NCBI RefSeq assembly: GCF_046105845.1
Contig: NZ_CP151004.1
Length of the DNA stretch: 64,000 bases
Strand: one strand, 5' to 3'
Source of the DNA: Escherichia coli
GTDB lineage: Bacteria > Pseudomonadota > Gammaproteobacteria > Enterobacterales > Enterobacteriaceae
Position numbers and translations under genes: made by a program. Below, in pieces: positions 5,374-44,047 of the stretch. How positions within the stretch are numbered: position 1 is the stretch's first letter; the number at the start of each line of letters is the position of its first letter. The notes beneath the pieces were generated by a model. It worked only from the letters and a program-made list of their open reading frames with translations. It was not told the origin of the DNA and ran no database searches.

Positions 5374-6228
5374 TTAGTTCTGCGGATTCAACGCGCTAAG
5401 GATAAAATCCACTATCTGTTCGCGATAAACATCGCCGTGACGATCGGAAAAAGCATCAATGTGTTCGCCATCCGGGATTAGGATCAACCGTTTTGGCTCT
5501 TTTGCCAGGCTATACAACTTTTCGCTGTGCTGCCATGGGATAACGTGATCAGCTTTACCGTGAATCAGTAAAAGCGGGATCGGGCTGACGCTGGCGATGT
5601 AATTTTCGCCGCTGTAACTCTCATCAAGTAAGTAGCCACTGCCGGGGATCATCTGGTTGGCGATGGTCGCATAAGAGGCAAATGTGGAGTCGAGGATCAC
5701 CGCACGTATGCCTTCACGATCACCCTGACCAATAACATCCAGAATATTCGCCCCGCCAATACTCTGCCCGAACAGCACCAGCCGTTGTGGGTTTACATCA
5801 CTGCGATGGCGCACCACATTGATGGCACTTTGCGTATCGTCCAGCAATCCGGCCTGGGACGGCGTGCCTTTTGATTTACCAAACCCGCGATAATCAAACA
5901 TAAAAACGTTGAAATTACGCTCGGGTAACCAACTGACCAGCGGCCAGTGGGCGGACATATTTCCGGCATTGCCGTGAGCATGAATAATGGTAGCAATGGC
6001 GTTATCAGCAGGGCCCGTCGAAGAAGGGATAAACCAGCCTTGCAGATGAGTACCGTCCTTAGCCGTAAATTCGACGGATTCCGCCGACCAGGGTTCGGGA
6101 CCGTAAATTTTGTCGTCAGGATAATAGAAGAAATTGATGGCGATGCGCGGTATTAAATAAATGCAGAAGGCAACAACAAAGAGAATAAACAGAATTTTGA
6201 GAACGCGTTTGTTCACTGGCAGCGCCAT
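5374..6228 (-). CDS. yfhR: alpha/beta hydrolase family membrane-anchored protein
   Basis: N-terminal TM segment, hydrolase motifs HGNAGN and GQSIGG; start chosen at MALPVNKR (284 aa). Confidence 0.8.
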   Translation of the reverse strand: MALPVNKRVLKILFILFVVAFCIYLIPRIAINFFYYPDDKIYGPEPWSAESVEFTAKDGTHLQGWFIPSSTGPADNAIATIIHAHGNAGNMSAHWPLVSWLPERNFNVFMFDYRGFGKSKGTPSQAGLLDDTQSAINVVRHRSDVNPQRLVLFGQSIGGANILDVIGQGDREGIRAVILDSTFASYATIANQMIPGSGYLLDESYSGENYIASVSPIPLLLIHGKADHVIPWQHSEKLYSLAKEPKRLILIPDGEHIDAFSDRHGDVYREQIVDFILSALNPQN

Positions 6229-6372
6229 AACCTTTCCTTGCGACTTCTTTATCATCCATTAATCGGGGAAAGATGGTGGGAGAGTGGCGAAAGAAAGTAA
6301 AGCGGTGAGGAAGTATTTCGGAATAGCGCCTGAAAGGCGAGGGCGGGTGAGTGACATCACCCGCCAGAGTCA

Positions 6373-7176
6373 TTAACGCTTCAGGGCGTCGCTTAACTCG
6401 TCACGCATATTCGCCAGCATGGCTTTAACAACGCGCGGGTTACCAGCAACGATGTTACCGGTCAGCATGTAGTTATGACCACCGGTGAAGTCGCTGACGA
6501 TGCCGCCCGCTTCACGAACCAGCAGCTCGCCTGCGGCGAAATCCCACGGACGCAGACCGATTTCAAAGAAACCGTCAACGCGACCCGCAGCAACGTAAGC
6601 CAGATCCAGCGCCGCAGAACCGGTACGACGGAAGTCTGCACATTCGTTGAACAGTTTGCCGACGATGTTGATGTAGGTGGTGGCGTACTGTTTTGCTTTG
6701 AACGGGAAGCCGGTCGCCAGAATAGTACCGTCGAGATCGCGAGCGGTGCTGCCGCGCAGACGGTAGCCGTTCAGCTGTGCGCCCTGACCGCGAGTGGCGG
6801 TGAACAGTTCGTTACGCATAGGATCGTAAACCACAGCAACTTCAGTGCGGCCTTTGATACGAACGGCGATAGATACCGCGAAGTGCGGCAGACGTTTGAT
6901 AAAGTTGGTAGTGCCATCCAGTGGATCGATAACCCATTGAACATCCTGATCAGTACCTTCAAGTTCACCGCTTTCTTCGGTGATGATGGTGTGCTGTGGG
7001 TAAGATTTACGAATCGTGTCGATAATCACCGCTTCGGCAGCTTTATCTACGTTGGTCACGAAGTCGTTACTGCCTTTCTGGCTCGCTTCTACAGCGTCCG
7101 GGGTTTCATAGTTTTTGGCAATTAAATTACCCGCCTTGCGCGCTGCGCGCACGGCGATGTTCAGCATCGGATGCAT
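6373..7176 (-). CDS. suhB: inositol monophosphatase / NusA-associated SuhB
   Basis: 267-aa ORF with IMPase motifs WVIDPLDGT and GRVDGFFE. Confidence 0.93.
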   Translation of the reverse strand: MHPMLNIAVRAARKAGNLIAKNYETPDAVEASQKGSNDFVTNVDKAAEAVIIDTIRKSYPQHTIITEESGELEGTDQDVQWVIDPLDGTTNFIKRLPHFAVSIAVRIKGRTEVAVVYDPMRNELFTATRGQGAQLNGYRLRGSTARDLDGTILATGFPFKAKQYATTYINIVGKLFNECADFRRTGSAALDLAYVAAGRVDGFFEIGLRPWDFAAGELLVREAGGIVSDFTGGHNYMLTGNIVAGNPRVVKAMLANMRDELSDALKR

Positions 7177-7294
7177 CGGTCTCTCTCACTGGATGTTAAA
7201 GAACGGGAAAACGGCGCAGAGTATAGCAGCGAGATCGGCATCTGTCTTCGTTTTATGATAAGATGCGCGAATAATCTTTAGACGAAGAAAGACA

Positions 7295-8035
7295 ATGCTG
7301 CAAAATATTCGAATTGTGCTGGTGGAGACGTCACACACCGGCAATATGGGTTCTGTTGCCCGTGCCATGAAAACAATGGGATTAACCAATCTGTGGCTGG
7401 TTAATCCACTGGTGAAACCTGACTCCCAGGCGATTGCCCTGGCAGCAGGGGCCAGCGATGTGATTGGTAATGCTCATATCGTCGATACGCTCGACGAAGC
7501 GTTAGCCGGTTGTAGCCTGGTGGTGGGCACCAGCGCACGCTCCCGCACGCTGCCGTGGCCGATGCTCGACCCGCGCGAATGCGGTCTGAAAAGCGTCGCT
7601 GAAGCGGCAAATACCCCGGTGGCGCTGGTTTTTGGTCGCGAGCGCGTCGGCTTGACCAATGAAGAGTTGCAGAAATGCCATTATCATGTCGCGATTGCCG
7701 CTAACCCGGAATACAGTTCGCTGAACCTGGCGATGGCGGTTCAGGTTATTGCCTATGAAGTGCGCATGGCCTGGCTTGCAACTCAGGAAAATGGTGAGCA
7801 GGTCGAGCATGAAGAGACGCCGTATCCGCTGGTCGATGATCTGGAGCGTTTTTATGGTCATCTGGAACAAACGCTGCTGGCAACCGGTTTTATCCGTGAA
7901 AACCATCCGGGGCAGGTGATGAATAAATTGCGTCGTCTGTTTACCCGTGCGCGCCCGGAAAGCCAGGAATTGAATATCCTGCGCGGGATTCTGGCTTCTA
8001 TAGAGCAGCAGAATAAAGGTAATAAGGCCGAATAA
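7295..8035 (+). CDS. trmJ: tRNA (cytidine/uridine-2'-O)-methyltransferase (SpoU family)
   Basis: 246-aa ORF, SPOUT-fold motifs, immediately upstream of iscR. Confidence 0.92.
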
Positions 8036-8043
8036 TAGTGGTT

Positions 8044-8127
8044 GCCTGATGCGACGCTTAACGCGTCTTATCAGGCCTGCAGTGCACAGAGCCTCAGGTC
8101 GGATAAGGCGTTCACGTCGCATCCGAC
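8044..8127. repeat. REP (repetitive extragenic palindromic) element pair
   Basis: GCCTGATGCGACGCTTAACGCGTCTTATCAGGCC and GTCGGATAAGGCGTTCACGTCGCATCCGAC, canonical REP palindromes. Confidence 0.8.
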
Positions 8128-8189
8128 AACAGGTACAAACGCCACGATAAAAAAATGGCACTGAAGGTTAAATACCCGACTAAATCAGT

Positions 8190-8300
8190 CAAGTAAATAG
8201 TTGACCAATTTACTCGGGAATGTCAGACTTGACCCTGCTATGCAATACCCCCACTTTTACAATAAAAAACCCCGGGCAGGGGCGAGTTTGAGGTGAAGTA
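8190..8300 (+). promoter_or_regulatory. isc operon promoter / IscR autoregulatory region (candidate)
   Basis: Upstream of iscR; contains TTGACC...TATGCAATA-like elements and a GC hairpin (CCCCGGGCAGGGG) in the leader; exact operator not verified. Confidence 0.45.
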
Positions 8301-8304
8301 AGAC

Positions 8305-8793
8305 ATGAGACTGACATCTAAAGGGCGCTATGCCGTGACCGCAATGCTTGACGTTGCGCTCAACTCTGAAGCGGGCCCGGTACCGTTGGCTGATATTTCC
8401 GAACGTCAGGGAATTTCTCTTTCTTATCTGGAACAACTGTTTTCCCGTCTGCGTAAAAATGGTCTGGTTTCCAGCGTACGTGGACCAGGCGGTGGTTATC
8501 TGTTAGGCAAAGATGCCAGCAGCATCGCCGTTGGCGAAGTGATTAGCGCCGTTGACGAATCTGTAGATGCCACCCGTTGTCAGGGTAAAGGCGGCTGCCA
8601 GGGCGGCGATAAATGCCTGACCCACGCGCTGTGGCGTGATTTGAGCGACCGTCTCACCGGTTTTCTCAACAACATTACTTTAGGCGAACTGGTTAATAAC
8701 CAGGAAGTGCTGGATGTGTCTGGTCGTCAGCATACTCACGACGCGCCACGCACCCGCACACAAGACGCGATCGACGTTAAGTTACGCGCTTAA
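8305..8793 (+). CDS. iscR: Fe-S cluster-containing transcriptional regulator IscR (Rrf2 family)
   Basis: 162 aa; Rrf2 HTH; cluster-ligand Cys residues [13 protein letters not shown]. Confidence 0.95.
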
Positions 8794-9033
8794 TTTAACC
8801 GTCCTGTTTCGTGTTGCATCTGCGTTGACTGCACATACTCACTCTGGTCACTTACTTATGTAAGCTCCCGGAGATTCGTAAGTTTGTCAACTTGCTGAAA
8901 CCCGAAACAGTTAGGTTAAAGATAACAAGATATTAGAATCAGGCCGGGGCGTATCGCGCTCCGTAAACACGGTCGTACATCCAGCCGGTAGCCTGGTTCC
9001 TTGCATTGAGTGATGTACGGAGTTTATAGAGCA

Positions 9034-10248
9034 ATGAAATTACCGATTTATCTCGACTACTCCGCAACCACGCCGGTGGACCCGCGTGTTGCCGAGAAAA
9101 TGATGCAGTTTATGACGATGGACGGAACCTTTGGTAACCCGGCCTCCCGTTCTCACCGTTTCGGCTGGCAGGCTGAAGAAGCGGTAGATATCGCCCGTAA
9201 TCAGATTGCCGAACTGGTCGGCGCTGACCCGCGTGAAATCGTCTTTACCTCTGGTGCAACCGAATCTGACAACCTGGCGATCAAAGGTGCAGCCAACTTT
9301 TATCAGAAAAAAGGCAAGCACATCATCACCAGTAAAACCGAACACAAAGCGGTACTGGATACCTGCCGTCAGCTGGAGCGCGAAGGTTTCGAAGTCACCT
9401 ACCTGGCACCGCAGCGTAATGGCATTATCGACCTGAAAGAACTGGAAGCAGCGATGCGTGACGACACCATCCTCGTTTCCATCATGCACGTAAATAACGA
9501 AATCGGCGTGGTGCAGGATATCGCGGCTATCGGCGAAATGTGCCGTGCTCGCGGCATTATCTATCACGTTGATGCAACCCAGAGCGTGGGCAAACTGCCT
9601 ATCGACCTGAGCCAGTTGAAAGTTGACCTGATGTCATTCTCCGGTCACAAAATCTATGGCCCGAAAGGTATCGGTGCGCTATATGTGCGTCGTAAACCGC
9701 GCGTACGCATCGAAGCGCAAATGCACGGCGGCGGTCACGAGCGCGGTATGCGTTCCGGCACTCTGCCTGTTCACCAGATCGTTGGTATGGGCGAAGCCTA
9801 TCGCATCGCAAAAGAAGAGATGGCGACCGAGATGGAACGTCTGCGCGGCCTGCGTAACCGTCTGTGGAACGGCATCAAAGATATCGAAGAAGTTTACCTG
9901 AACGGTGACCTGGAACACGGTGCGCCGAACATTCTCAACGTCAGCTTCAACTACGTTGAAGGTGAGTCGCTGATTATGGCGCTGAAAGACCTCGCGGTTT
10001 CTTCAGGTTCCGCCTGTACGTCAGCAAGCCTCGAACCGTCCTACGTGCTGCGCGCGCTGGGGCTGAACGACGAGCTGGCACATAGCTCTATCCGTTTCTC
10101 TTTAGGTCGTTTTACTACTGAAGAAGAGATCGACTACACCATCGAGTTAGTTCGTAAATCCATCGGTCGTCTGCGTGACCTTTCTCCGCTGTGGGAAATG
10201 TACAAGCAGGGCGTGGATCTGAACAGCATCGAATGGGCACATCATTAA
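9034..10248 (+). CDS. iscS: cysteine desulfurase
   Basis: Start at [14 protein letters not shown] (404 aa); PLP-binding SGHK motif; ORF-track start at 9010 is an extension. Confidence 0.95.
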
Positions 10249-10275
10249 TCGGTATCGGAATCAGGAGAATTTATA

Positions 10276-10662
10276 ATGGCTTACAGCGAAAAAGTTATCG
10301 ACCATTACGAGAATCCGCGTAACGTGGGTTCCTTTGACAACAACGACGAGAACGTCGGCAGCGGCATGGTGGGTGCACCGGCATGTGGCGACGTGATGAA
10401 GTTGCAGATTAAAGTCAACGATGAAGGTATCATTGAAGACGCGCGTTTTAAAACTTACGGCTGCGGTTCTGCTATCGCTTCCAGCTCCCTGGTCACCGAA
10501 TGGGTGAAAGGGAAGTCTCTCGACGAAGCGCAGGCGATCAAAAACACCGATATTGCTGAAGAACTTGAACTGCCTCCGGTGAAAATTCACTGTTCTATTC
10601 TGGCAGAAGACGCGATCAAAGCCGCCATTGCGGACTATAAAAGCAAACGTGAAGCAAAATAA
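10276..10662 (+). CDS. iscU: Fe-S cluster assembly scaffold
   Basis: 128 aa; conserved Cys motifs GAPACGD, YGCGSAIAS, LPPVKIHCS. Confidence 0.96.
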   Translation: MAYSEKVIDHYENPRNVGSFDNNDENVGSGMVGAPACGDVMKLQIKVNDEGIIEDARFKTYGCGSAIASSSLVTEWVKGKSLDEAQAIKNTDIAEELELPPVKIHCSILAEDAIKAAIADYKSKREAK

Positions 10663-10678
10663 GAGTTGAGGTTTGGTT

Positions 10679-11002
10679 ATGTCGATTACACTGAGCGACA
10701 GTGCAGCAGCGCGAGTAAATACCTTTCTGGCTAACCGCGGCAAAGGGTTTGGCCTGCGTCTGGGCGTGAGAACCTCCGGATGTTCAGGTATGGCTTATGT
10801 ACTGGAATTTGTTGACGAACCGACGCCGGAAGACATCGTGTTTGAAGACAAAGGCGTGAAAGTCGTGGTCGATGGCAAAAGCCTGCAATTTCTGGACGGT
10901 ACGCAGCTGGACTTCGTAAAAGAAGGCCTGAACGAAGGGTTTAAATTCACCAACCCGAACGTCAAAGATGAGTGTGGTTGCGGCGAAAGCTTCCACGTTT
11001 GA
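10679..11002 (+). CDS. iscA: Fe-S cluster insertion protein (A-type carrier)
   Basis: 107 aa starting [14 protein letters not shown]-terminal CGCGESF. Confidence 0.95.
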
Positions 11003-11097
11003 TGCGCATACCGATAACCCCACCGTGGTCGCCTGCGCGTGGGGTTTGTTTTACCTGATTCGCCGTTATCGCGGCGGATCGCAGCCCTGAGAATGTT

Positions 11098-11613
11098 ATG
11101 GATTACTTCACCCTCTTTGGCTTGCCTGCCCGTTATCAACTCGATACCCAGGCACTGAGCCTGCGTTTTCAGGATCTACAACGTCAGTATCATCCTGATA
11201 AATTCGCCAGCGGAAGCCAGGCGGAACAACTCGCCGCCGTACAGCAATCTGCAACCATTAACCAGGCCTGGCAAACGCTGCGTCATCCGTTAATGCGCGC
11301 GGAATATTTGCTTTCTTTGCACGGTTTTGATCTCGCCAGCGAGCAGCATACTGTGCGCGACACCGCGTTCCTGATGGAACAGCTGGAACTGCGCGAAGAA
11401 CTGGACGAGATCGAACAGGCGAAAGATGAAGCGCGGCTGGAAAGCTTTATCAAACGTGTGAAAAAGATGTTTGATACCCGCCATCAGTTGATGGTTGAAC
11501 AGTTAGACAACGAGACGTGGGACGCGGCGGCGGATACCGTGCGTAAGCTGCGTTTTCTCGATAAACTGCGAAGCAGTGCCGAACAACTCGAAGAAAAACT
11601 GCTCGATTTTTAA
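11098..11613 (+). CDS. hscB: co-chaperone HscB (J-domain)
   Basis: 171 aa; J-domain HPD motif (QRQYHPDKF). Confidence 0.95.
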
Positions 11614-11629
11614 TTTCTGGAAGCTAAAC

Positions 11630-13480
11630 ATGGCCTTATTACAAATTAGTGAACCTGGTTTGAGTGCTGCGCCGCATCAGCGTCGTCTGGCGGCCGGTAT
11701 CGACCTGGGCACAACCAACTCGCTGGTGGCGACAGTGCGCAGCGGTCAGGCCGAAACGTTAGCCGACCATGAAGGCCGTCACCTGCTGCCGTCTGTTGTT
11801 CACTATCAACAGCAAGGGCATTCGGTGGGTTATGACGCGCGTACTAACGCAGCGCTTGATACCGCCAACACCATTAGTTCTGTTAAACGCCTGATGGGGC
11901 GCTCGCTGGCTGATATCCAGCAACGCTATCCGCATCTGCCTTATCAATTCCAGGCCAGCGAAAACGGCCTGCCGATGATTGAAACGGCGGCGGGGCTGCT
12001 GAACCCGGTGCGCGTTTCTGCGGACATCCTCAAAGCACTGGCGGCGCGGGCAACTGAAGCCCTGGCAGGCGAGCTGGATGGTGTAGTTATCACCGTTCCG
12101 GCGTACTTTGACGATGCCCAGCGTCAGGGCACCAAAGACGCGGCGCGTCTGGCGGGCCTTCACGTCCTGCGCTTACTTAACGAACCGACCGCTGCGGCTA
12201 TCGCCTACGGGCTGGATTCCGGTCAGGAAGGCGTGATCGCCGTTTATGACCTCGGTGGCGGGACGTTTGATATTTCCATTCTGCGCTTAAGTCGCGGCGT
12301 GTTTGAAGTGCTGGCGACCGGCGGTGATTCCGCGCTCGGCGGCGATGATTTCGACCATCTGCTGGCGGATTACATTCGCGAGCAGGCGGGCATTCCTGAT
12401 CGTAGCGATAACCGCGTTCAGCGTGAACTGCTGGATGCCGCCATTGCAGCCAAAATCGCGCTGAGCGATGCGGACTCCGTGACCGTTAACGTTGCGGGCT
12501 GGCAGGGCGAAATCAGCCGTGAACAATTCAATGAACTGATCGCGCCACTGGTAAAACGAACCTTACTGGCTTGTCGTCGCGCGCTGAAAGACGCTGGCGT
12601 AGAAGCTGATGAAGTGCTGGAAGTGGTGATGGTTGGCGGTTCTACTCGCGTGCCGCTGGTGCGTGAACGAGTAGGCGAATTTTTCGGTCGTCCACCGCTG
12701 ACTTCTATCGACCCGGATAAAGTCGTCGCTATTGGCGCGGCGATTCAGGCGGATATTCTGGTGGGTAACAAGCCGGACAGCGAAATGCTGTTGCTGGATG
12801 TGATCCCGCTGTCGCTGGGCCTCGAAACGATGGGCGGCCTGGTGGAGAAAGTGATTCCGCGTAATACCACTATTCCGGTGGCGCGCGCTCAGGATTTCAC
12901 CACCTTTAAAGATGGTCAGACGGCGATGTCTATCCATGTAATGCAGGGTGAGCGTGAACTGGTGCAGGACTGCCGCTCGCTGGCGCGTTTTGCACTGCGT
13001 GGTATCCCGGCGCTACCGGCTGGCGGCGCGCATATTCGCGTAACGTTCCAGGTCGATGCCGACGGTCTTTTGAGCGTGACGGCGATGGAGAAATCCACCG
13101 GCGTTGAGGCGTCTATTCAGGTCAAACCGTCTTACGGTCTGACCGATAGCGAAATCGCTTCGATGATCAAAGACTCAATGAGCTATGCCGAGCAGGACGT
13201 AAAAGCCCGTATGCTGGCAGAACAAAAAGTAGAAGCGGCGCGTGTGCTGGAAAGTCTGCACGGCGCGCTGGCTGCTGATGCCGCGCTGTTAAGCGCCGCA
13301 GAACGTCAGGATATCGACGATGCTGCCGCTCACCTGAGTGAAGTGGCGCAGGGCGATGATGTTGACGCCATCGAACAAGCGATTAAAAACGTAGACAAAC
13401 AAACCCAGGATTTCGCCGCTCGCCGCATGGACCAGTCGGTTCGTCGTGCGCTGAAAGGCCATTCCGTGGACGAGGTTTAA
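11630..13480 (+). CDS. hscA: Hsp70-type chaperone HscA
   Basis: Start at [10 protein letters not shown] (616 aa); Hsp70 motifs [20 protein letters not shown]-track start 11576 overlaps hscB and is rejected. Confidence 0.95.
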
Positions 13481-34669: not shown

Positions 34670-34738
34670 TTATCCGTAAGTATTTTATCTGCCATTCCCT
34701 CTATGAATGTAGAGGGAATGGCTACCGGAGGAATTCAT

Positions 34739-36351
<1,613 letters not shown>

Positions 36352-38017: not shown

Positions 38018-39595
38018 ATGACGGAAAACATTCATAAGCATCGCATCCTCATTCTGGACTTCGGTTCTCAGTACACTCAACTGGTTGCGCGCCGCGTGCG
38101 TGAACTGGGTGTTTACTGCGAACTGTGGGCGTGGGATGTGACAGAAGCACAAATTCGTGACTTCAACCCAAGCGGCATTATTCTTTCCGGCGGCCCGGAA
38201 AGCACCACCGAAGAAAACAGCCCGCGTGCGCCGCAGTATGTTTTTGAAGCAGGCGTACCGGTATTCGGCGTTTGCTATGGCATGCAGACCATGGCAATGC
38301 AGTTGGGCGGTCACGTTGAAGCCTCTAACGAACGTGAATTTGGCTACGCGCAGGTTGAAGTCGTAAACGACAGCGCACTGGTTCGCGGTATTGAAGATGC
38401 TCTGACCGCAGACGGTAAACCTCTGCTCGATGTCTGGATGAGCCACGGCGATAAAGTTACCGCTATCCCGTCCGACTTCGTCACCGTAGCCAGCACCGAA
38501 AGCTGCCCGTTTGCCATTATGGCTAACGAAGAAAAACGCTTCTATGGCGTACAGTTCCACCCGGAAGTGACTCACACCCGTCAGGGTATGCGCATGCTGG
38601 AGCGTTTTGTGCGTGATATCTGCCAGTGTGAAGCCCTGTGGACGCCAGCGAAAATTATCGACGATGCTGTAGCTCGCATCCGCGAGCAGGTAGGCGACGA
38701 TAAAGTCATCCTCGGCCTCTCTGGTGGTGTGGATTCCTCCGTAACCGCAATGCTGCTGCACCGCGCTATCGGTAAAAACCTGACTTGCGTATTCGTCGAC
38801 AACGGCCTGCTGCGTCTCAACGAAGCAGAGCAGGTTCTGGATATGTTTGGCGATCACTTTGGTCTGAACATTGTTCACGTTCCGGCAGAAGATCGCTTCC
38901 TGTCAGCGTTGGCCGGCGAAAACGATCCGGAAGCAAAACGTAAAATCATCGGGCGCGTTTTCGTTGAAGTATTCGATGAAGAAGCACTGAAACTGGAAGA
39001 CGTGAAGTGGCTGGCGCAGGGCACTATCTACCCTGACGTTATTGAATCTGCCGCATCTGCAACCGGTAAAGCACACGTCATCAAATCTCACCACAACGTG
39101 GGCGGCCTGCCGAAAGAGATGAAGATGGGCCTGGTTGAACCGCTGAAAGAGCTGTTCAAAGACGAAGTGCGTAAGATTGGTCTGGAGCTGGGCCTGCCGT
39201 ACGACATGCTGTACCGTCACCCGTTCCCGGGACCAGGCCTCGGCGTTCGTGTACTGGGCGAAGTGAAGAAAGAGTACTGCGACCTGCTGCGCCGTGCTGA
39301 CGCCATCTTCATTGAAGAACTGCGTAAAGCGGACCTGTACGACAAAGTCAGCCAGGCGTTCACCGTCTTCCTGCCGGTACGTTCCGTTGGTGTAATGGGC
39401 GATGGTCGTAAGTATGACTGGGTTGTTTCTCTGCGTGCTGTCGAAACCATCGACTTTATGACCGCACACTGGGCGCATCTGCCGTACGATTTCCTCGGTC
39501 GCGTTTCCAACCGCATTATCAATGAAGTGAACGGTATTTCCCGCGTGGTGTATGACATCAGCGGCAAGCCGCCAGCTACCATTGAGTGGGAGTGA
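38018..39595 (+). CDS. guaA: GMP synthase (glutamine-hydrolysing)
   Basis: 525 aa; GATase motifs GVCYGMQ, ATP-PPase SGGVDSS; ends ...IEWE. Confidence 0.96.
39581..39595 (+). repeat. left copy of islet-flanking direct repeat (functional guaA 3' end)
   Basis: ATTGAGTGGGAGTGA, 13/15 identical to right copy; encodes IEWE-stop. Confidence 0.75.
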
Positions 39596-39634
39596 GGCTA
39601 TTATTTAAACTATTGTTTTATTTGATTTAGTGAG

Positions 39635-39675
39635 TGCCATTGATGATATTGACTGCATTATCAATGGCATTTTTC
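39635..39675 (+). terminator. islet-borne intrinsic terminator now serving guaA
   Basis: 10-bp stem TGCCATTGAT / ATCAATGGCA with 15-nt loop, followed by TTTTT. Confidence 0.55.
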
Positions 39676-39913
39676 ATGGTATAAGGCCGACGCTGAATCG
39701 AAGATATAGCAAATACCATGTGACCCTATCAGCAAATGCCATGGTATCGACAACCGGGGGCATTGCAGCGCTGTGCTGATGCCATCGATGCCCGCTTTTG
39801 GTCAGAACCGCTCTCTCGACCCAAGCCTCCAGATCGTTAAATATGCGCCAGAGGAGCACCTCGTGATCGAAATTGTGAACAAGACAGCCGCCGCTCGGAA
39901 TCGAAGTATCCAT
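39674..39913 (-). CDS. hypothetical 79-aa ORF inside islet (possible gene remnant)
   Basis: ORF only; no recognisable motifs; Trp-rich; no clear SD. Confidence 0.15.
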   Translation of the reverse strand: MDTSIPSGGCLVHNFDHEVLLWRIFNDLEAWVERAVLTKSGHRWHQHSAAMPPVVDTMAFADRVTWYLLYLRFSVGLIP

Positions 39914-39980
39914 ATGGGTGAATAAAGTTTGCGGAAAACACGCTGAGAAAATAGAAAAGCGTCAATGAAGGGACATAGCA

Positions 39981-41261
39981 ATGGCGATTAACGGAGAGGA
40001 CGGTGTTAGTGCAGTCACCGTGGATGAACTACTCAAGCAAGGCCTTCGGATACCGAACTATCAACGCCCATACAGTTGGGAAGTATCGACCGCTCTACAA
40101 CTGGTGGATGATCTTAGCGAAGCTCTTCGAGATACCGAAAGAAAAGATATTCCCTATGTTTTGGGTGCAATCATTCTTCACGATGATGGTGAGTATCTCA
40201 ATGTAGTCGACGGACAGCAACGTCTGCTGACTTTGCGAATGATTCTTGCGGCCTTAGATCCGATAAATCATCAGATTTCGGTGTCTGGTAACAGCGAAAC
40301 TCCTGTCTCCCTGGTTTGGATAGAGCTTCAAAGGCGCCTGTCGCAGTTGGAAGATAAAAAAGAATTTTTGGATTTTATCTGTCACAAATGTCAGTTGGTG
40401 CGTATTGTGACGGACGATATTGATGAGGCATTTCGTGTCTTTGATTCCCAGAACTATCGCGGCAAACCGCTTGCCCCTCATGACTTGCTCAAAGCACACC
40501 ACCTCCGCGAAATGCACGATGAGTCCGCTGCTATGAAAGTGGCTGTCGTTGAGGCTTGGGAAGCCGTAAATGATGAGGATCTGGACAGGCTTTTTTCTAC
40601 TTTTTTATACCGGATATCCAAGTGGTCACGAGGCGAAAGCTCGCTCGAATTTGCTATTCGGGACATCGGGATGTTTAAGGGAATTTCATCACGATCCCAC
40701 AGATCATTTTCGCCAAATCTGCGATATCACCTTGCAGCACAAGCCGCTATGCCACTTCTAAGTGCATGGGCGGTGTCCTCTACACATGATGCACGAAATG
40801 CCGGGCGCAGCCGCTTTCAGCTTGATGCCCCGATAATCGCTGGGCGCTCATTTTTCGAGATGGTGACATTCATGCTTGACGAATTGAAGATACTGGAAAA
40901 AGAGGTTATCGACAGAGGTTTCAAAAACTTTGGCCCATCTCAAAGTCGCTACCGCTACGTGTACGAATTGTTCATTGCCGCGCTGCTTTGCTATACAAAC
41001 AAGTTTGGCGATGAAGATGTGGATGAAGTGCGAAATAGATTATTCGCATGGGCATATGCCTTGCGGGTCGAGTTACTTCGTGTGCAATTTGTATCTGCTG
41101 ACAACCGAGCTCGAGGTAAAAACGATGCAAATAAATCGCCTTTTGTTTTGCTACGCAACGCGATGACTGGAAGTGTTGTCCGCAAACTTCCAATAGCAAG
41201 TCAGCCATACAACGATAACCACGAAAAGGAACTCGTTGCTTTTATCAAGGGGCTGCAATGA
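39981..41261 (+). CDS. DUF262 (ParB/Srx-like NTP-binding nuclease-family N-terminal domain) protein, no DUF1524
   Basis: Motifs IPNYQRPYSW (40050-40079), DGQQRL (40209-40226), FRVFDSQNYRGKPLAPHDLLKAH; SD AAGGGA upstream; 426 aa. Confidence 0.85.
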   Translation: MAINGEDGVSAVTVDELLKQGLRIPNYQRPYSWEVSTALQLVDDLSEALRDTERKDIPYVLGAIILHDDGEYLNVVDGQQRLLTLRMILAALDPINHQISVSGNSETPVSLVWIELQRRLSQLEDKKEFLDFICHKCQLVRIVTDDIDEAFRVFDSQNYRGKPLAPHDLLKAHHLREMHDESAAMKVAVVEAWEAVNDEDLDRLFSTFLYRISKWSRGESSLEFAIRDIGMFKGISSRSHRSFSPNLRYHLAAQAAMPLLSAWAVSSTHDARNAGRSRFQLDAPIIAGRSFFEMVTFMLDELKILEKEVIDRGFKNFGPSQSRYRYVYELFIAALLCYTNKFGDEDVDEVRNRLFAWAYALRVELLRVQFVSADNRARGKNDANKSPFVLLRNAMTGSVVRKLPIASQPYNDNHEKELVAFIKGLQ

Positions 41262-43210
41262 GCAAGAAGGAGTTGAGACCCGAACTGATAACAGTAGGCA
41301 AGCTATTCACGGGCTATTATCTGATTCCTATTTATCAACGGAACTATGCTTGGCGGGCCGAACAGATTGAGCAACTTATCAGCGATATTCAAGGCTCGGT
41401 GGTTGGGGGCCAGGACGACTATTTTCTTGGGAACCTTGTTGTAATCAAGCGGGGTAGAGAGGACGAGTTCGAGGTCATAGATGGACAACAACGACTTACA
41501 ACCCTCTATCTGCTTCTGACCTTCCTGGAGCAAGACGGTGAGGGTGGGAAGCTGTCGATTGGCCATGCAGGCCACTTGCAATATGAGTCGCGCGCACGGG
41601 CAACGGAAGCCCTGCGGCGAGTAGCACAGGAGGCGGCTAAGGGGCACGTCCGACCGCAGGGCTCCACGAGTAATGCAGATGCTGGCATCCATGAAGGCTA
41701 CAGCATCATCAATCAGTTCTTCAAACAAAATGAAACCCTTAATCGCTCACGCGAAAAATTCTCCGATTTCTTGCTAAAGAAGGTTACTGTCGTCCGTGCC
41801 TCGCTGCCACCCAATACCGACCTCAATCGCTACTTCGAGATCATGAACACTCGTGGGCAGCAACTCAAGCAGGTTGATATTGTTAAGGCTCGCCTGATGA
41901 GCAAGCTGCCCAATCAATATGAACGCGAATGCTTCGCGTGGGTTTGGGATGCCTGTGCTGACATGGATTCTTATGTCCAGATGTCTCTGACCCGTGGTGA
42001 CACCAGTTTACGAAACAAAGTATTTGGCGATGAATGGTCCTGGCTGGAGGTGACCAGCTTCGCGTCGCTAATGGAAAGTCGTCCGCAATCCGACATCAGT
42101 TCATTAAGGCAATCCTCCGAAGGGGTATCGTTGTCCTTGGATGAGGCGTTGTCAAAATACGCTAAAGAGATCGAGTCAAATTCCACTGAAGACGAGGGCA
42201 ACGAGCGGTTTCGTTCGACTATTGAGTTTCCGGCCTTTCTGCTACACGTTCTAAGAATTATGAAAGGCGATGAGGTCGAAGACGAAGGCCAGCTTGACGA
42301 CAAGCGCCTCATCAAGTCATTTGACGACGCCGTAAATAATGTACCCGATGCTAAAGCCGATTGGGTGCGTAGCTTTGCATTTATGCTTCTTAAGTGCCGT
42401 AACCTCTTCGATGGCTTCATCTTGAAGCGTCAATTCACGGCGAACATCGGTGACGATGGCGATTGGTCTCTCCAGCGATTGAAGAAAGGCGGTGCGGACA
42501 AGAAGCCAGCCCCGACGTACATCCATGTTTTCTCGGCCAGCAATGGAAACTTGGAGGAGGACAGCGGTGCTGACCCACATACCCGAGATGTATTGTTGCT
42601 TCAGTCCATGCTTCGGATTACCTACACTTCTCCGCGAACGATGCACTGGATTACCAAAGTTCTTCGCTGGCTATCCGTTAAAGCCCCTCAAGACGCGAAA
42701 CATGCGGATCTTGCCGATTTGTTGAAGGGGTATGCCCGCAGCAAGGTTAAAGAGACATTCCCCTTTGAGGAAGATCAGCAACCACAAGGGTTTGGTATCA
42801 GCCGTATCGTCTTTTCATACCTCGACTATCTTCTGTTGAGTGATTCCTCAAAACGAGATTTCAAATTTCAGTTCAGAACTTCCATTGAGCACTTTTATCC
42901 ACAGCATCCGGACAAAGAACAGTCGGGCGCGGCTGTTTCAGGTTCTAGCCTTAACCTGCTTGGCAACCTCGCGCTCGTAAGCGTCAGCGCGAACTCAAAA
43001 TTCAGCAATAGCCTTCCCAGAGCGAAGGCCGAAAACTTCAAGGATACGATTGAACTTCAAAGTCCCAAGCTCAAGAGAATGGCGGAAATCGCTCGAAATA
43101 CAAGCTGGGACGATCAGCAGATAACAGCACATCATGAAGAGATGGTGACATTGCTTCGTGATGATGTAAGTCTGGTGGAGGCAAGCGGAAGATCCTACCC
43201 GGGGCGTTGA
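41258..43210 (+). CDS. GmrSD-like fusion protein: N-terminal DUF262 + C-terminal DUF1524 (His-Me finger/HNH-like endonuclease)
   Basis: N-term IPIYQRNYAW, DGQQRL (41480-), FEIMNTRGQQL...DIVKARL; C-term SIEHFYPQH (EH at 42887-42892) and LLGNLALVSVSAN; 650 aa; ATGA start/stop overlap with upstream gene. Confidence 0.85.
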   Translation: MSKKELRPELITVGKLFTGYYLIPIYQRNYAWRAEQIEQLISDIQGSVVGGQDDYFLGNLVVIKRGREDEFEVIDGQQRLTTLYLLLTFLEQDGEGGKLSIGHAGHLQYESRARATEALRRVAQEAAKGHVRPQGSTSNADAGIHEGYSIINQFFKQNETLNRSREKFSDFLLKKVTVVRASLPPNTDLNRYFEIMNTRGQQLKQVDIVKARLMSKLPNQYERECFAWVWDACADMDSYVQMSLTRGDTSLRNKVFGDEWSWLEVTSFASLMESRPQSDISSLRQSSEGVSLSLDEALSKYAKEIESNSTEDEGNERFRSTIEFPAFLLHVLRIMKGDEVEDEGQLDDKRLIKSFDDAVNNVPDAKADWVRSFAFMLLKCRNLFDGFILKRQFTANIGDDGDWSLQRLKKGGADKKPAPTYIHVFSASNGNLEEDSGADPHTRDVLLLQSMLRITYTSPRTMHWITKVLRWLSVKAPQDAKHADLADLLKGYARSKVKETFPFEEDQQPQGFGISRIVFSYLDYLLLSDSSKRDFKFQFRTSIEHFYPQHPDKEQSGAAVSGSSLNLLGNLALVSVSANSKFSNSLPRAKAENFKDTIELQSPKLKRMAEIARNTSWDDQQITAHHEEMVTLLRDDVSLVEASGRSYPGR

Positions 43211-43400
43211 CTTCTTTGAATAACCGCTTTTGGACGAAAGTCCCTTGTGGAGTGCAAGTTGTCAGTCTAAAAGCGTTTTGCGTCAGGCGACACGATCAGT
43301 ACAGCTCCCAGGTTTTCTTACCATGGTATTTTGTGTGGTATCGACATGCAAATATAATGCTATTCTATTGATTTTACAGTGTTTTAAGGCGGCATTAATC

Positions 43401-43415
43401 ATCGAGTGGGAATGA
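43401..43415 (+). repeat. right copy of islet-flanking direct repeat (displaced ancestral guaA 3' end)
   Basis: ATCGAGTGGGAATGA; would encode IEWE-stop; immediately followed by the A-tract/hairpin/T-tract terminator. Confidence 0.75.
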
Positions 43416-43436
43416 TTTGACCCTGCACTATGAATG

Positions 43437-43470
43437 AACAAAACCCTCTGTTACTACAGAGGGTTTTTTA
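43437..43470. terminator. bidirectional intrinsic terminator (ancestral guaA / yfgI)
   Basis: AACAAAA-CCCTCTG-ttacta-CAGAGGG-TTTTTT; A-run upstream and T-run downstream. Confidence 0.8.
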
Positions 43471-43507
43471 TCTTCAAGAATTATAGGCTTGAAGTTACTT
43501 ACATCGA

Positions 43508-44047
43508 TTAATTAAACCAGCTGTCCGATTTGTTCTCTTCTGCTTTGCCCACGCTTTTCATCAGATCGCGACCGCCTTCAGTCATATTTCTGTTTGCGTC
43601 AGCTTCAGATTGCACCACATCGGTTTGCGCAGCTTTGTGCTTCAGTTCCTGATCGATAAATTCGTTTTCTCGCTTAACGCGGGCTTCTTCTTTCGCCAGC
43701 GCCAGTTTTTGTTTCTGAATCTCTAAGCTGCGTAGCTCATCTTCATAACTTTGATCGCGTTTTTTGTCCGCAGTGGCTTCGGCATCCAGTTTATCCTGAC
43801 GAGCTTTCTTATTTGCCGCTGCCGTTGCCGCTCTTTTGTTAGCGGCGGCCTGGGCGTTTGCGCGACGTTGCTTCTCTTGCTGGATTTCCCTGTTGCGCTC
43901 CGCGACCCATTCGTCATGCTGCCTTTGCTCTTCATTTTTACCTTGCTGTTCCGCTTCTGCGACAGCAGAGAGTTGATCCTGCAATGATGAGGCGATAGCC
44001 GGATAGCTTAAGGAGGCTAAGATGGCGCAAAGAAAAACTTTCTTCAT
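43508..44047 (-). CDS. yfgI: DUF4223-type periplasmic coiled-coil protein YfgI
   Basis: 179 aa; signal peptide; Lys/Glu/Gln-rich; synteny. Confidence 0.85.
   Translation of the reverse strand: MKKVFLCAILASLSYPAIASSLQDQLSAVAEAEQQGKNEEQRQHDEWVAERNREIQQEKQRRANAQAAANKRAATAAANKKARQDKLDAEATADKKRDQSYEDELRSLEIQKQKLALAKEEARVKRENEFIDQELKHKAAQTDVVQSEADANRNMTEGGRDLMKSVGKAEENKSDSWFN

What the first reader, a model, noticed from the sequence alone, without database searches (positions are those of the whole stretch)
41258..41261. ATGA stop/start overlap couples gene A and gene B
The stop codon of gene A (TGA, 41259-41261) overlaps the start codon of gene B (ATG, 41258-41260). This 4-nt overlap is typical of translationally coupled subunits made in fixed stoichiometry and supports the two genes being one functional unit rather than two independent insertions.
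Basis: seen in the sequence. Interest (0 to 1): 0.45.

Follow-up and report, generated by a model that had tools for sequence, protein, structure and literature searches.

The report
Overlap joining two restriction-enzyme genes
The four-base ATGA overlap is real and links the two genes of an already catalogued two-protein anti-phage restriction enzyme (TgvAB / GmrS1-GmrSD2 type) that sits on a small mobile island next to guaA in E. coli; the overlap is an ordinary operon feature.

Summary
Gene A (39981-41261, 426 aa) ends with TGA at 41259-41261. Gene B (41258-43210, 650 aa) starts with ATG at 41258-41260, five bases after a Shine-Dalgarno-like AAGGGG.

The interpretation that the two genes form one functional unit is strongly supported:
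- A is a DUF262 (GmrSD_N) + DUF7834 protein. B is a DUF262 + DUF1524 His-Me nuclease.
- In 67 of 67 informative loci from many phyla, a B homologue directly follows the A homologue on the same strand. In 57 of 68 junctions (window included) the two genes overlap; the rest are 0-19 nt apart.
- The identity matrices of the A and B families correlate at r = 0.96.
- Both genes lie inside one 3.8-kb island that is absent from K-12.

The pair belongs to the published two-gene GmrSD-like type IV restriction family. That family includes V. cholerae TgvAB (8-bp overlap, both genes required) and E. coli ECOR17 GmrS1/GmrSD2. Alleles of these proteins from other strains (96% DNA identity) are listed as clusters CLS_016/CLS_017 in Silas et al. 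2025. Near-identical proteins are listed as TgvAB hits in Jaskólska et al. 2024.

Translational coupling itself is inferred, not shown. ATGA is the commonest junction between same-strand E. coli genes.

The verdict is that this is real, correctly interpreted, ordinary and already known. The side observation of most interest is that the island lacks an integrase, is flanked by the GIsul2 att core GAGTGGGA, and is spread over four genera and 468 plasmids.

The parts
39581..39595 (.). Left island boundary: ATTGAGTGGGAGTGA. This is an island-borne replacement of the last codons and stop of guaA, and it contains the att core GAGTGGGA (39584-39591).
   Evidence: Comparison with the K-12 empty site. 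The same junction occurs in Kluyvera, Providencia and Shewanella loci. The core was located. GIsul2 integrates at GAGTGGGA in the guaA 3' end (PMC9376610).
39635..39669 (+). Hairpin (13-nt arms, 9-nt loop) followed by TTTTT. It is probably the terminator that serves guaA in the island-bearing arrangement.
   Evidence: Inverted repeat I4 and the sequence itself. Its function is inferred.
39967..39973 (+). Shine-Dalgarno-like GAAGGGA, 7 nt before the ATG of gene A.
   Evidence: Sequence; anti-SD pairing of -5.0 kcal/mol.
39981..41261 (+). Gene A (426 aa), the nuclease-less subunit. It has GmrSD_N/DUF262 (residues 19-175) with QR28-29, DGQQR77-81 and F154..N158, followed by the helical DUF7834 (186-414). 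It is a homologue of TgvA / GmrS1.
   Evidence: Pfam; motifs invariant in 54 homologues; 31% identity to ECOR17 GmrS1, E 8e-57; 27% identity to TgvA, E 4e-28; AF2 pLDDT 91 with best folds SspE/DndI/BrxU.
41247..41252 (+). Shine-Dalgarno-like AAGGGG for gene B. It lies inside the 3' end of gene A, 5 nt before the ATG.
   Evidence: Sequence. Anti-SD pairing is -6.8 kcal/mol against a background of -2.5. An SD-like element stands before the B start in 68% of loci, against 20% at random positions.
41258..41261 (+). The ATGA stop/start overlap (start of B, stop of A).
   Evidence: The surrounding 63-mer occurs in 78 of 5,426 complete E. coli genomes at 95% identity or more.
41258..43210 (+). Gene B (650 aa), a GmrSD-type enzyme. 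It has GmrSD_N/DUF262 (15-214; QR27-28, DGQQR75-79, FEIMN193-197), a helical linker, and a GmrSD_C/DUF1524 His-Me finger nuclease (521-631; E544-H545, N570, N579, N584). It is a homologue of TgvB / GmrSD2.
   Evidence: Pfam; motifs invariant in 54 homologues; 33% identity to ECOR17 GmrSD2 over the full length, E 7.5e-90; 28% identity to TgvB, E 3e-34; AF2 pLDDT 88 with best folds DndI/SspE/BrxU.
43401..43415 (.). Right island boundary: ATCGAGTGGGAATGA. This is the original guaA 3' end and stop of the host, now displaced, with the att core GAGTGGGA at 43404-43411.
   Evidence: The K-12 sequence resumes at 43400; sequence; core position.
43440..43467 (+). Intrinsic terminator (12-bp stem plus a T run). 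It is the ancestral guaA/yfgI terminator and now also lies downstream of gene B.
   Evidence: Terminator scan. An identical sequence is present in the K-12 empty site.

Best explanation
Genes A and B form a bicistronic operon encoding a two-subunit, modification-dependent (type IV) restriction enzyme of the GmrSD superfamily. This is the TgvAB / GmrS1-GmrSD2 type.

B is a complete GmrSD-like enzyme: a ParB-like DUF262 NTPase/sensor domain, a helical linker, and a DUF1524 His-Me finger nuclease. A is a paralogous DUF262 protein with a different helical C-terminal domain (DUF7834) and no nuclease.

By analogy with the tested homologues, both proteins are needed. They most likely act as a hetero-oligomer in which the NTP-binding sites of both DUF262 domains control the nuclease of B, which cuts hypermodified phage DNA. 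For TgvAB and the ECOR17 system the target is glucosyl-hydroxymethylcytosine DNA of T-even phages.

The ATGA overlap places the B start codon, together with an SD embedded in the end of A, exactly where ribosomes terminate on A. B is therefore most likely translated largely by ribosomes that have just finished A, through termination-reinitiation or local unmasking. This ties B output to A output.

What is shown here: the anatomy, the motifs, homology to the tested systems, conserved adjacency and overlap, co-evolution, and the single-island location.

What is inferred: the common transcript, translational coupling, complex formation, the target modification and anti-phage activity of this particular allele.
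For: - Overlap and SD.
- Domains.
- Catalytic motifs present and invariant in 54 homologues of each protein.
- Reciprocal homology: A to GmrS1 E 8e-57 and B to GmrSD2 E 7.5e-90; A to TgvA E 4e-28 and B to TgvB E 3e-34. A matches TgvA/GmrS1 better than TgvB/GmrSD2, and B the reverse.
- Allele accessions WP_016246209 and WP_000037308 are listed in clusters CLS_017 and CLS_016, and the paper counts three two-gene GmrSD systems among CLS_001-020.
- Near-identical A proteins from Shimwellia and Pectobacterium are listed as TgvA hits of the TgvAB model.
- Synteny is 67 of 67; 57 of 68 junctions overlap and all are 19 nt apart or less.
- A/B co-evolution r = 0.96.
- No internal + strand promoter or terminator was detected.
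- Published genetics on homologues: both genes are required, the DGQQR motifs of both are required, and the nuclease His/Asn of B is required. TgvAB overlaps by 8 bp, and stoichiometry was proposed to matter.
- General evidence that -4 overlaps are coupled and enriched in heteromers.
Against: - No expression, interaction or phage data exist for this allele in the material I could read.
- Silas et al. synthesised a representative of every group, but which five new systems were active is shown only in figures.
- B has a reasonable SD of its own, so it may be translated independently.
- The exact overlap length is not conserved (-1 to -17, and 11 of 68 loci have small gaps), so the ATGA geometry as such is not essential.
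- The local RNA fold at the junction is no more stable than shuffled sequence (z = -1.2). There is therefore no evidence for a masking hairpin.
- Identity to the tested systems is only 27-33%, so the DNA modification recognised could differ.
Confidence: 0.8

Rival explanations
1. The overlap is only genome compaction. A and B share an mRNA and work together, but B is translated mainly by de novo initiation at its own Shine-Dalgarno site. Translation of A then has little influence on the yield of B.
For: B has a decent SD at optimal spacing (-6.8 kcal/mol). The overlap length varies among homologues, and 11 of 68 loci have gaps of 0-19 nt. No significant masking structure exists at the junction. 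[quoted passage not shown]
Against: In 13 of 14 tested overlapping pairs translation was strictly coupled, even where SD motifs were present. Tight juxtaposition is kept across phyla at 30% protein identity, including in Bacteroidota, which hardly use SD motifs. Imbalanced expression was proposed to weaken TgvAB, and joint over-expression of the ECOR17 pair is toxic. Both observations argue that the ratio matters.
Confidence: 0.2
2. A is not a catalytic partner. It is a guard or decoy that protects B from phage-encoded inhibitors (such as Ip-type injected proteins), or a pure regulator or inhibitor of B. In that case the functional unit would be enzyme plus accessory rather than a heteromeric enzyme.
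For: Jaskólska et al. raise this possibility for TgvA. T4 Ip3 specifically inhibits the ECOR17 two-gene system. The C-terminal DUF7834 domain of A has no detectable profile homology to B.
Against: In the homologues, B alone gives no defence even against phages lacking the known inhibitor and even when over-expressed. Mutations in the DGQQR motif of TgvA abolish defence. The QR/DGQQR/FxxxN motifs of A are invariant in 54 homologues, which suggests an active nucleotide-binding site. Neither ECOR17 protein alone gave protection when over-expressed, whereas inducing both together caused gross toxicity. This is the opposite of what an inhibitor role for A would predict.
Confidence: 0.1
3. A and B are two independent single-gene DUF262 defence genes that lie side by side by chance or by separate insertions. 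The ATGA overlap would then be an accident of start-codon choice.
For: Both proteins hit the same single-gene PADLOC families (HEC-06, Orf5, SspE) through their DUF262 domain. Defence genes often cluster.
Against: Adjacency is 67 of 67, in constant order and on the same strand. Co-evolution gives r = 0.96. There is one island with one pair of ends. A lacks any effector domain. Genetics on two homologous systems show mutual dependence.
Confidence: 0.02
4. The overlap is a programmed frameshift site that produces an A-B fusion protein.
For: B lies in another reading frame and begins at the very end of A. Single-chain GmrSD enzymes exist.
Against: There is no slippery heptamer before the stop (GCT TTT ATC AAG GGG CTG CAA TGA). 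B has its own ATG and SD. The relative frame differs between homologues (overlaps of 1, 4, 8, 10, 11, 14 and 17 nt, and gaps). No A-B fused ORF was seen in 70 loci.
Confidence: 0.01

Closest known systems
GmrS1/GmrSD2 'doublet' type IV restriction system of E. coli ECOR17 (CLS_003/004), and the sister clusters CLS_016/017 and CLS_018/019 (Silas et al., Nat Commun 2025, PMC12373910)
   Same: The gene order and architecture match: a DUF262-only protein followed by a DUF262 + His-Me/HNH nuclease protein. A is 31% identical to GmrS1 over residues 22-375. B is 33% identical to GmrSD2 over its full length. Alleles of the window's proteins, WP_016246209 and WP_000037308, are themselves listed in CLS_017 and CLS_016. 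In ECOR17 both genes are needed, the nuclease E582/H583 are needed, and joint over-expression is toxic.
   Different: This is a different cluster at only about 30% identity. In the close relatives of the ECOR17-type pair the genes overlap by 8 nt (L052, L057, L058), where the window pair overlaps by 4 nt. Whether CLS_016/017 was among the active systems, and whether Ip3 or another injected protein inhibits it, is not readable from the text held. The genomic location differs in that the window copy sits on the guaA att island.
TgvAB (VC1767/VC1766) of Vibrio cholerae VPI-2 (Jaskólska et al. 2024, PMC11411939; Gomez & Waters 2024, PMC11014532)
   Same: It is a two-gene GmrSD-like system: TgvA is DUF262 only and TgvB is DUF262 + DUF1524. 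The ORFs overlap (8 bp), both are required, and the DGQQR motifs of both plus the His/Asn of TgvB are required. It targets glucosylated 5hmC phages. A is 27% identical to TgvA beyond the DUF262 domain, and B is 28% identical to TgvB. Near-identical A proteins are listed among the 1,341 TgvAB hits.
   Different: TgvAB is embedded in a type I R-M operon. The window pair stands alone, and only 5 of 70 related loci have a VC1765-like hsdR nearby. Sequence identity is low, and the overlap is 4 nt where TgvAB has 8.
Single-chain GmrSD family enzymes (Eco94GmrSD, GmrSD-CT596, BrxU) and SspE / DndI
   Same: Gene B has the same DUF262-linker-DUF1524 architecture and motifs. The best structural matches for both A and B models are SspE, DndI and BrxU. 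The PADLOC hits are HEC-06, Orf5 and SspE.
   Different: Those enzymes work as products of one gene. Here, as in the tested homologues, a second nuclease-less DUF262 + DUF7834 protein is invariably co-encoded. SspE and DndI sense phosphorothioate and belong to multi-gene modification systems that are absent here.
GrwAB of WASA-lineage V. cholerae (PMC12137116)
   Same: It is another two-gene GmrSD-like system in which both DUF262 proteins are required.
   Different: The order is reversed (the nuclease-bearing protein comes first). The partner GrwB has unrelated C-terminal domains, and the authors state that GrwB and TgvA are distinct apart from DUF262.
Overlapping, translationally coupled gene pairs of E. 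coli (termination-reinitiation; Huber et al. 2019, 2023)
   Same: The window pair is a -4 ATGA overlap with an SD inside the upstream gene, and it encodes presumed subunits of one enzyme.
   Different: Coupling has not been measured for this pair.
GIsul2-type elements integrating at the 3' end of guaA
   Same: The island occupies the same attB and is flanked on both sides by the GIsul2 core GAGTGGGA. On plasmids it sits at secondary sites with partial cores, as GIsul2 does.
   Different: The island is only 3.8 kb. It has no integrase, excisionase or transfer genes, and no homology to GIsul2 cargo was tested.

Membership tests
Two-gene GmrSD-like type IV restriction systems (TgvAB / GmrS1-GmrSD2) | The first gene encodes a DUF262 (ParB-like) protein without a nuclease domain, carrying the QR, DGQQR and FxxxN motifs. 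| tested here: met
   Pfam finds GmrSD_N 19-175 plus DUF7834 and no nuclease domain. Q28 R29, D77-R81 and F154..N158 are present and invariant in 54 homologues.
Two-gene GmrSD-like type IV restriction systems (TgvAB / GmrS1-GmrSD2) | The second gene encodes DUF262 plus a C-terminal DUF1524 / His-Me finger nuclease with the catalytic H...N...N. | tested here: met
   Pfam finds GmrSD_N 15-214 and GmrSD_C 521-631. E544 H545, N570, N579 and N584 are invariant. The beta-beta-alpha elements are modelled at 542-582.
Two-gene GmrSD-like type IV restriction systems (TgvAB / GmrS1-GmrSD2) | The two genes are adjacent, co-directional, overlapping or abutting, in the order partner then nuclease. | tested here: met
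   The window has a 4-nt overlap. Adjacency holds in 67 of 67 related loci, and every junction is 19 nt apart or less.
Two-gene GmrSD-like type IV restriction systems (TgvAB / GmrS1-GmrSD2) | Each protein is homologous to the corresponding component of an experimentally tested system, beyond the shared DUF262 domain. | tested here: met
   A to GmrS1 E 8e-57 (residues 22-375); B to GmrSD2 E 7.5e-90 (21-633). A to TgvA E 4e-28 (22-364); B to TgvB E 3e-34. The allele accessions are in the published clusters CLS_017 and CLS_016, and near-identical proteins are in the TgvAB hit list.
Two-gene GmrSD-like type IV restriction systems (TgvAB / GmrS1-GmrSD2) | Both genes are required for phage defence, and neither alone is sufficient. 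| not testable with these tools
   This is shown for TgvAB and the ECOR17 system only. The result for the synthesised CLS_016/017 representative is not readable in the text held.
Two-gene GmrSD-like type IV restriction systems (TgvAB / GmrS1-GmrSD2) | Restriction depends on a DNA modification of the target (for example glucosyl-5hmC). | not testable with these tools
   No data exist for this allele. This is inferred from homologues at 27-33% identity.
Translationally coupled overlapping gene pairs (termination-reinitiation) | Stop and start overlap (-4 or -1), or the distance is below about 6 nt. | tested here: met
   ATGA at 41258-41261.
Translationally coupled overlapping gene pairs (termination-reinitiation) | An SD motif for the downstream gene lies inside the 3' end of the upstream gene. 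| tested here: met
   AAGGGG at 41247-41252 with 5-nt spacing and -6.8 kcal/mol.
Translationally coupled overlapping gene pairs (termination-reinitiation) | Both genes lie on one transcript. | tested here: inconclusive
   No + strand promoter-like or terminator-like site was found within A-B. The scan also failed to find the promoter upstream of A, so it is weak evidence.
Translationally coupled overlapping gene pairs (termination-reinitiation) | Translation of the downstream gene depends on translation of the upstream gene. | not testable with these tools
   This needs reporter fusions or nonsense mutants.
Single-chain GmrSD enzymes (Eco94GmrSD, BrxU) | One polypeptide with DUF262 + DUF1524 constitutes the whole system. 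| tested here: not met
   B has that architecture, but it is always accompanied by the A-type partner (67 of 67). Homologous B-type proteins are inactive alone.
GIsul2-type guaA-integrating genomic islands | Insertion at the guaA 3' end, flanked by the core GAGTGGGA. | tested here: met
   The cores lie at 39584-39591 and 43404-43411. The core is defined in PMC9376610.
GIsul2-type guaA-integrating genomic islands | The element encodes its own tyrosine integrase. | tested here: not met
   The island holds only genes A and B. Small flanking ORFs gave no family hits.

The most novel reading that the evidence does not exclude
The A-B operon may be the entire cargo of a minimal, integrase-less mobile defence cassette of 3.83 kb. 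Such a cassette would be inserted and excised in trans by GIsul2-family integrases acting on the GAGTGGGA core at the 3' end of guaA, and at degenerate secondary sites on plasmids.

This would explain three observations:
- Copies 96-97% identical lie at guaA in Escherichia, Kluyvera, Providencia and Shewanella, whose guaA genes are 73-87% identical.
- The cassette occupies a non-guaA site in Buttiauxella.
- It is present on 468 plasmids, mostly conjugative Klebsiella IncFIB/IncFII plasmids.

On this reading the compact, overlapping two-gene layout is what lets a complete restriction system travel as a 'hitch-hiking' att-flanked module.
Probability: 0.3. Interest if true: 0.45.

Novelty: already known. 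Interest (0 to 1): 0.15.

Why it matters
The finding matters little as a discovery. A 4-nt ATGA overlap is the commonest way two same-strand E. coli genes abut. The system it joins belongs to a two-gene GmrSD-like restriction family described in 2024-2025, and alleles of these proteins are already listed in published catalogues.

It is useful for annotation. The two proteins labelled 'DUF262 domain-containing protein' between guaA and yfgI should be read as one TgvAB/GmrS1-GmrSD2-type type IV restriction operon. The family-wide conservation of overlap (57 of 68 junctions) and the co-evolution (r = 0.96) give comparative support to the proposal in the literature that the two proteins act as a complex whose ratio matters.

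The side observation may interest people who study the spread of defence systems and phage-therapy resistance in Klebsiella. The module is an att-flanked, integrase-less island at the GIsul2 site and is widespread on Klebsiella conjugative plasmids.

Tried and rejected
- Masking RNA structure at the junction. Folding 41200-41300 gave -22.1 kcal/mol, z = -1.2 against shuffles, which is not significant.
- Rfam. No RNA family at E <= 1 across 39400-43600.
- Internal promoter or terminator between A and B. None was found on the + strand, but the scan also missed any promoter upstream of A, so it is weak.
- Long-range 17-nt complementarity between the A 5' UTR (39925-39941) and the A 3' end (41173-41189). 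It looked non-random in the window (0 of 100 shuffles). It decays to 11-14 nt in islands 96-97% identical, with no compensatory changes, and is absent in divergent loci. I rejected it as probable chance.
- Homology between the A C-terminal domain (DUF7834) and the B linker. hhalign finds homology only across DUF262.
- NCBIfam. No family for A or B.
- PDB sequence search. Only single-chain relatives turned up (DndI 9jfl, SspE and a DUF262 protein); no solved two-subunit complex exists.
- Small ORFs in the island's non-coding ends, checked as possible integrase or excisionase remnants. No family hits.
- Phage genomes. No homologue of A.
- Embedding in a type I R-M operon, as for TgvAB. Only 5 of 70 related loci have a VC1765-like hsdR within 6 kb, and none is in the window.
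- Whether CLS_016/017 was experimentally active. The text and supplements held do not say; the answer is only in figures.
- Frameshift fusion. Rejected for lack of a slippery site and because the relative frame varies among homologues.
Full report
**Observation.** The window is an E. coli chromosome segment (hisS-yfgM-bamB-der, xseA, guaB-guaA ... yfgI-yfgH, pdeF, ppx, ppk, purN). At 41250-41265 the sequence reads gggctgcaATGAgcaag.
- Gene A is the ORF 39981..41261 (426 aa). Its stop codon TGA lies at 41259-41261.
- Gene B is the ORF 41258..43210 (650 aa). Its start codon ATG lies at 41258-41260.
- PGAP annotates the same two CDS with the same 4-nt overlap in E. coli A10, E. coli H2 and Klebsiella plasmids.
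- ATG 41258 is the first start codon in its frame after the upstream stop. It follows a Shine-Dalgarno-like AAGGGG (41247-41252) at a 5-nt spacing, with anti-SD pairing of -6.8 kcal/mol against about -2.5 at random positions of the same genes.
- Alignments with homologues of 51-61% identity reach residue 1 of B.

**Is it more than chance?** One ATGA on its own means little. In E. coli the -4 ATGA overlap is the most common configuration of unidirectional gene pairs, and 707 of 2,987 such pairs lie within -8..+6 nt (PMC10666635). It is, however, the only overlapping pair among the 26 same-strand neighbours in the 50 kb annotated around it.

The comparative picture is more informative. An alignment of gene-A homologues was used to scan one genome per species of GTDB, and 70 loci were recovered. 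Their A proteins range from 99% down to 29% identity. The hosts are Gamma-, Beta- and Alphaproteobacteria, Myxococcota, Campylobacterota, Bacteroidota, Actinomycetota, Bacillota, Deferribacterota and Kiritimatiellia.
- In all 67 loci with enough downstream sequence, a gene-B homologue follows directly on the same strand. Of the remaining three loci, two are cut by a contig end and one has an interrupted B.
- In 57 of 68 junctions (window included) the B start lies inside the end of A. The overlap classes are -1 (4 loci), -4 (13), -8 (18), -10 (1), -11 (6), -14 (13) and -17 (2).
- The other 11 junctions are 0-19 nt apart.
- An SD-like element precedes the B start in 68% of loci, against 20% of random in-gene positions. 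The exceptions are mostly Bacteroidota.

What is conserved is the tight juxtaposition. The exact ATGA geometry is not.

**What the genes are.**
- Gene A has a GmrSD_N (DUF262, ParB-like) domain at residues 19-175 and a DUF7834 domain at 186-414.
- Gene B has GmrSD_N at 15-214 and GmrSD_C (DUF1524, His-Me finger nuclease) at 521-631.
- The DUF262 signature motifs are present in both. A has QR28-29, DGQQR77-81 and F154..N158. B has QR27-28, DGQQR75-79 and FEIMN193-197.
- B also has E544-H545, N570, N579 and N584.
- All of these are invariant columns in alignments of 54 homologues of each protein.
- Profile-profile comparison shows that A and B are paralogous only across the DUF262 domain (probability 99.7%, E 3.6e-27). 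The helical C-terminal domain of A is not detectably related to B.
- AlphaFold models are confident (pLDDT 91 for A, 88 for B).
- The best solved-structure matches for both are SspE, DndI and BrxU, which are GmrSD-family enzymes.
- PADLOC hits are domain-level only (HEC-06, Orf5, SspE). NCBIfam has no model for either protein.

**Relation to known systems.** Three papers describe two-gene GmrSD-like type IV restriction systems.
- *TgvAB of V. cholerae VPI-2.* It consists of a DUF262-only protein (TgvA) followed by a DUF262 + DUF1524 protein (TgvB). The ORFs overlap by 8 bp and neither gene protects alone. The DGQQR motifs of both proteins and the His/Asn of TgvB are needed. Defence is directed at phages with glucosylated 5hmC (PMC11411939, PMC11014532).
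- *E. coli ECOR17 GmrS1/GmrSD2.* It behaves the same way, is toxic when both genes are over-expressed, and is inhibited by T4 Ip3 (PMC12373910).
- *GrwAB.* This is a further, differently built two-gene relative.

I reconstructed the ECOR17 proteins and the first 399 residues of TgvA and TgvB from the papers' supplements.
- Gene A matches GmrS1 (31% identity, residues 22-375, E 8e-57) and TgvA (27%, 22-364, E 4e-28).
- Gene B matches GmrSD2 (33%, full length, E 7.5e-90) and TgvB (28%, E 3e-34).
- In each case the match to the corresponding component is far better than the cross-match.
- Supplementary Data 6 of Silas et al. lists WP_000037308 (the gene-B allele of E. coli H2 and of Klebsiella plasmids) in cluster CLS_016. 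It lists WP_016246209 (the gene-A allele) in CLS_017.
[quoted passage not shown] CLS_016/017 is therefore most likely the third.
- The text also states that representatives of all 15 groups were synthesised and tested against T-even phages.
- Table S5 of Jaskólska et al. lists near-identical gene-A proteins from Shimwellia blattae and Pectobacterium brasiliense as TgvA hits of their TgvAB model.

The system is therefore already catalogued. I could not read from the text whether this particular cluster was among the five newly active ones.

**One unit or two insertions?** Several results beyond synteny point to one unit.
- The pairwise identity matrices of the A and B families correlate at r = 0.96, and no Mantel permutation out of 999 reached this value. 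The partners are therefore inherited and transferred together.
- Comparison with K-12 shows that both genes lie in a single 3.83-kb insertion between the guaA stop and the guaA/yfgI terminator.
- The island is present in 78 of 5,426 complete E. coli genomes.
- There is no + strand promoter-like or terminator-like site between the genes. The first terminator after B is the ancestral one at 43440-43467.

Translational coupling itself remains an inference from general evidence: 13 of 14 tested overlapping pairs were strictly coupled, and overlaps are enriched among subunits of heteromers. It is also consistent with remarks in the TgvAB and ECOR17 papers that stoichiometry and dose matter. The main rival is that B is largely translated from its own SD. 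The junction has no significant masking structure, and the exact overlap length is not conserved.

**Mechanism proposed.** A and B are co-transcribed. Ribosomes terminating on A at TGA 41259-41261 re-initiate, or allow initiation, at ATG 41258 with help from the embedded SD. This links the yield of B to that of A. The two proteins assemble into a hetero-oligomer. The DUF262 nucleotide-binding sites of both gate the His-Me nuclease of B, which cleaves hypermodified phage DNA.
- *Shown here:* anatomy, motifs, homology, conserved adjacency and overlap, co-evolution, and a single island.
- *Inferred:* the single transcript, coupling, complex formation, the target modification, and activity of this allele.

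**Things noticed beside the finding.**
- The island has sharply defined ends. The left end is ATTGAGTGGGAGTGA, an island-borne replacement of the guaA terminus. The right end is ATCGAGTGGGAATGA, the displaced original terminus.
- Both ends contain GAGTGGGA, the core at which the genomic island GIsul2 integrates into the 3' end of guaA (PMC9376610).
- The island has no integrase.
- It is 96-97% identical in Kluyvera, Providencia rettgeri and Shewanella indica, always at guaA, although their guaA genes are only 73-87% identical to that of E. coli. In Buttiauxella it lies at a non-guaA site.
- It also occurs on 468 PLSDB plasmids. Of these, 464 are from Klebsiella and 394 are predicted conjugative. 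The protein accessions are the same as in E. coli H2 (shown for one plasmid, NZ_CP070159.1).
- The plasmid insertion site examined is not in guaA, and only the left end has the full core: AGAGTGGGA on the left, GAGTGGG followed by T on the right.
- This pattern suggests a small att-flanked cassette mobilised in trans. It was not tested.

**Verdict.** It is an ordinary operon junction inside an already described kind of two-gene type IV restriction system whose alleles are in published catalogues. Interest is low. The mobile-cassette aspect is the only part that might deserve follow-up.

Noticed in passing
window 39581-43415 (cores 39584-39591 and 43404-43411); L003-L005, L013: The two-gene island is a discrete 3.83-kb element inserted at the 3' end of guaA. 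It is flanked by imperfect 15-bp direct repeats containing GAGTGGGA, the published att core of the GIsul2 genomic island. It encodes no integrase. It is 96-97% identical in Kluyvera, Providencia rettgeri and Shewanella indica at guaA, although their guaA genes are 73-87% identical to that of E. coli. In Buttiauxella it sits at a non-guaA site. This suggests mobilisation in trans by a GIsul2-family integrase.
   Followed up: partly
L074 (NZ_CP070159.1) 8001-11827; L075 (MF116002.1) 6001-9827: The same island (96% identity) is on 468 PLSDB plasmids: 464 from Klebsiella, 394 predicted conjugative. On NZ_CP070159.1 (IncFIB/IncFII) the protein accessions are the same as in E. coli H2, WP_016246209 and WP_000037308. 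In that plasmid it lies near umuDC and an antirestriction gene at a non-guaA site whose right end has only a partial core (AGAGTGGGA on the left, GAGTGGG followed by T on the right). In pLGP4 an E. coli-like guaA copy (98.4% identity) lies to its left.
   Followed up: partly
window 39925-39941 and 41173-41189: A 17-nt inverted repeat (16 of 17 complementary) links the 5' UTR of gene A and the 3' end of gene A, about 70 nt before the B start. It is unexpected by shuffling in the window. It erodes to 11-14 nt in near-identical islands and is absent in divergent homologues, so it is probably chance.
   Followed up: yes
window 39635-39669: A hairpin with 13-nt arms followed by TTTTT lies directly after the island-borne guaA stop codon. 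It is likely a replacement terminator for guaA carried by the island. It also means gene A needs its own promoter in 39670-39980, and none was detected by the consensus scan.
   Followed up: partly
window ~34670-34950 versus L073 23088-34885: The closest complete genome (E. coli A10, 99.9% identical over the island) carries an insertion of about 12 kb between der and xseA. It contains sinH, a SinI-family gene and an 8-kb adhesin gene. The window lacks this insertion, so the window comes from a different strain background.
   Followed up: no
L073 41258-43198 versus window 41258-43210: Gene B is annotated 12 nt shorter at its 3' end in strain A10 (646 aa against 650 aa). This indicates allelic variation in the extreme C-terminus, which is also the lowest-confidence part of the model (pLDDT below 50 at residues 648-650).
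   Followed up: no
L063 3097-7353: In one metagenome-assembled genome (RUG14821) the open frame (stop to stop) containing the A homologue is about 4.2 kb long and extends far upstream of the predicted A start. This could be an N-terminal fusion of A to another protein. It was not examined.
   Followed up: no
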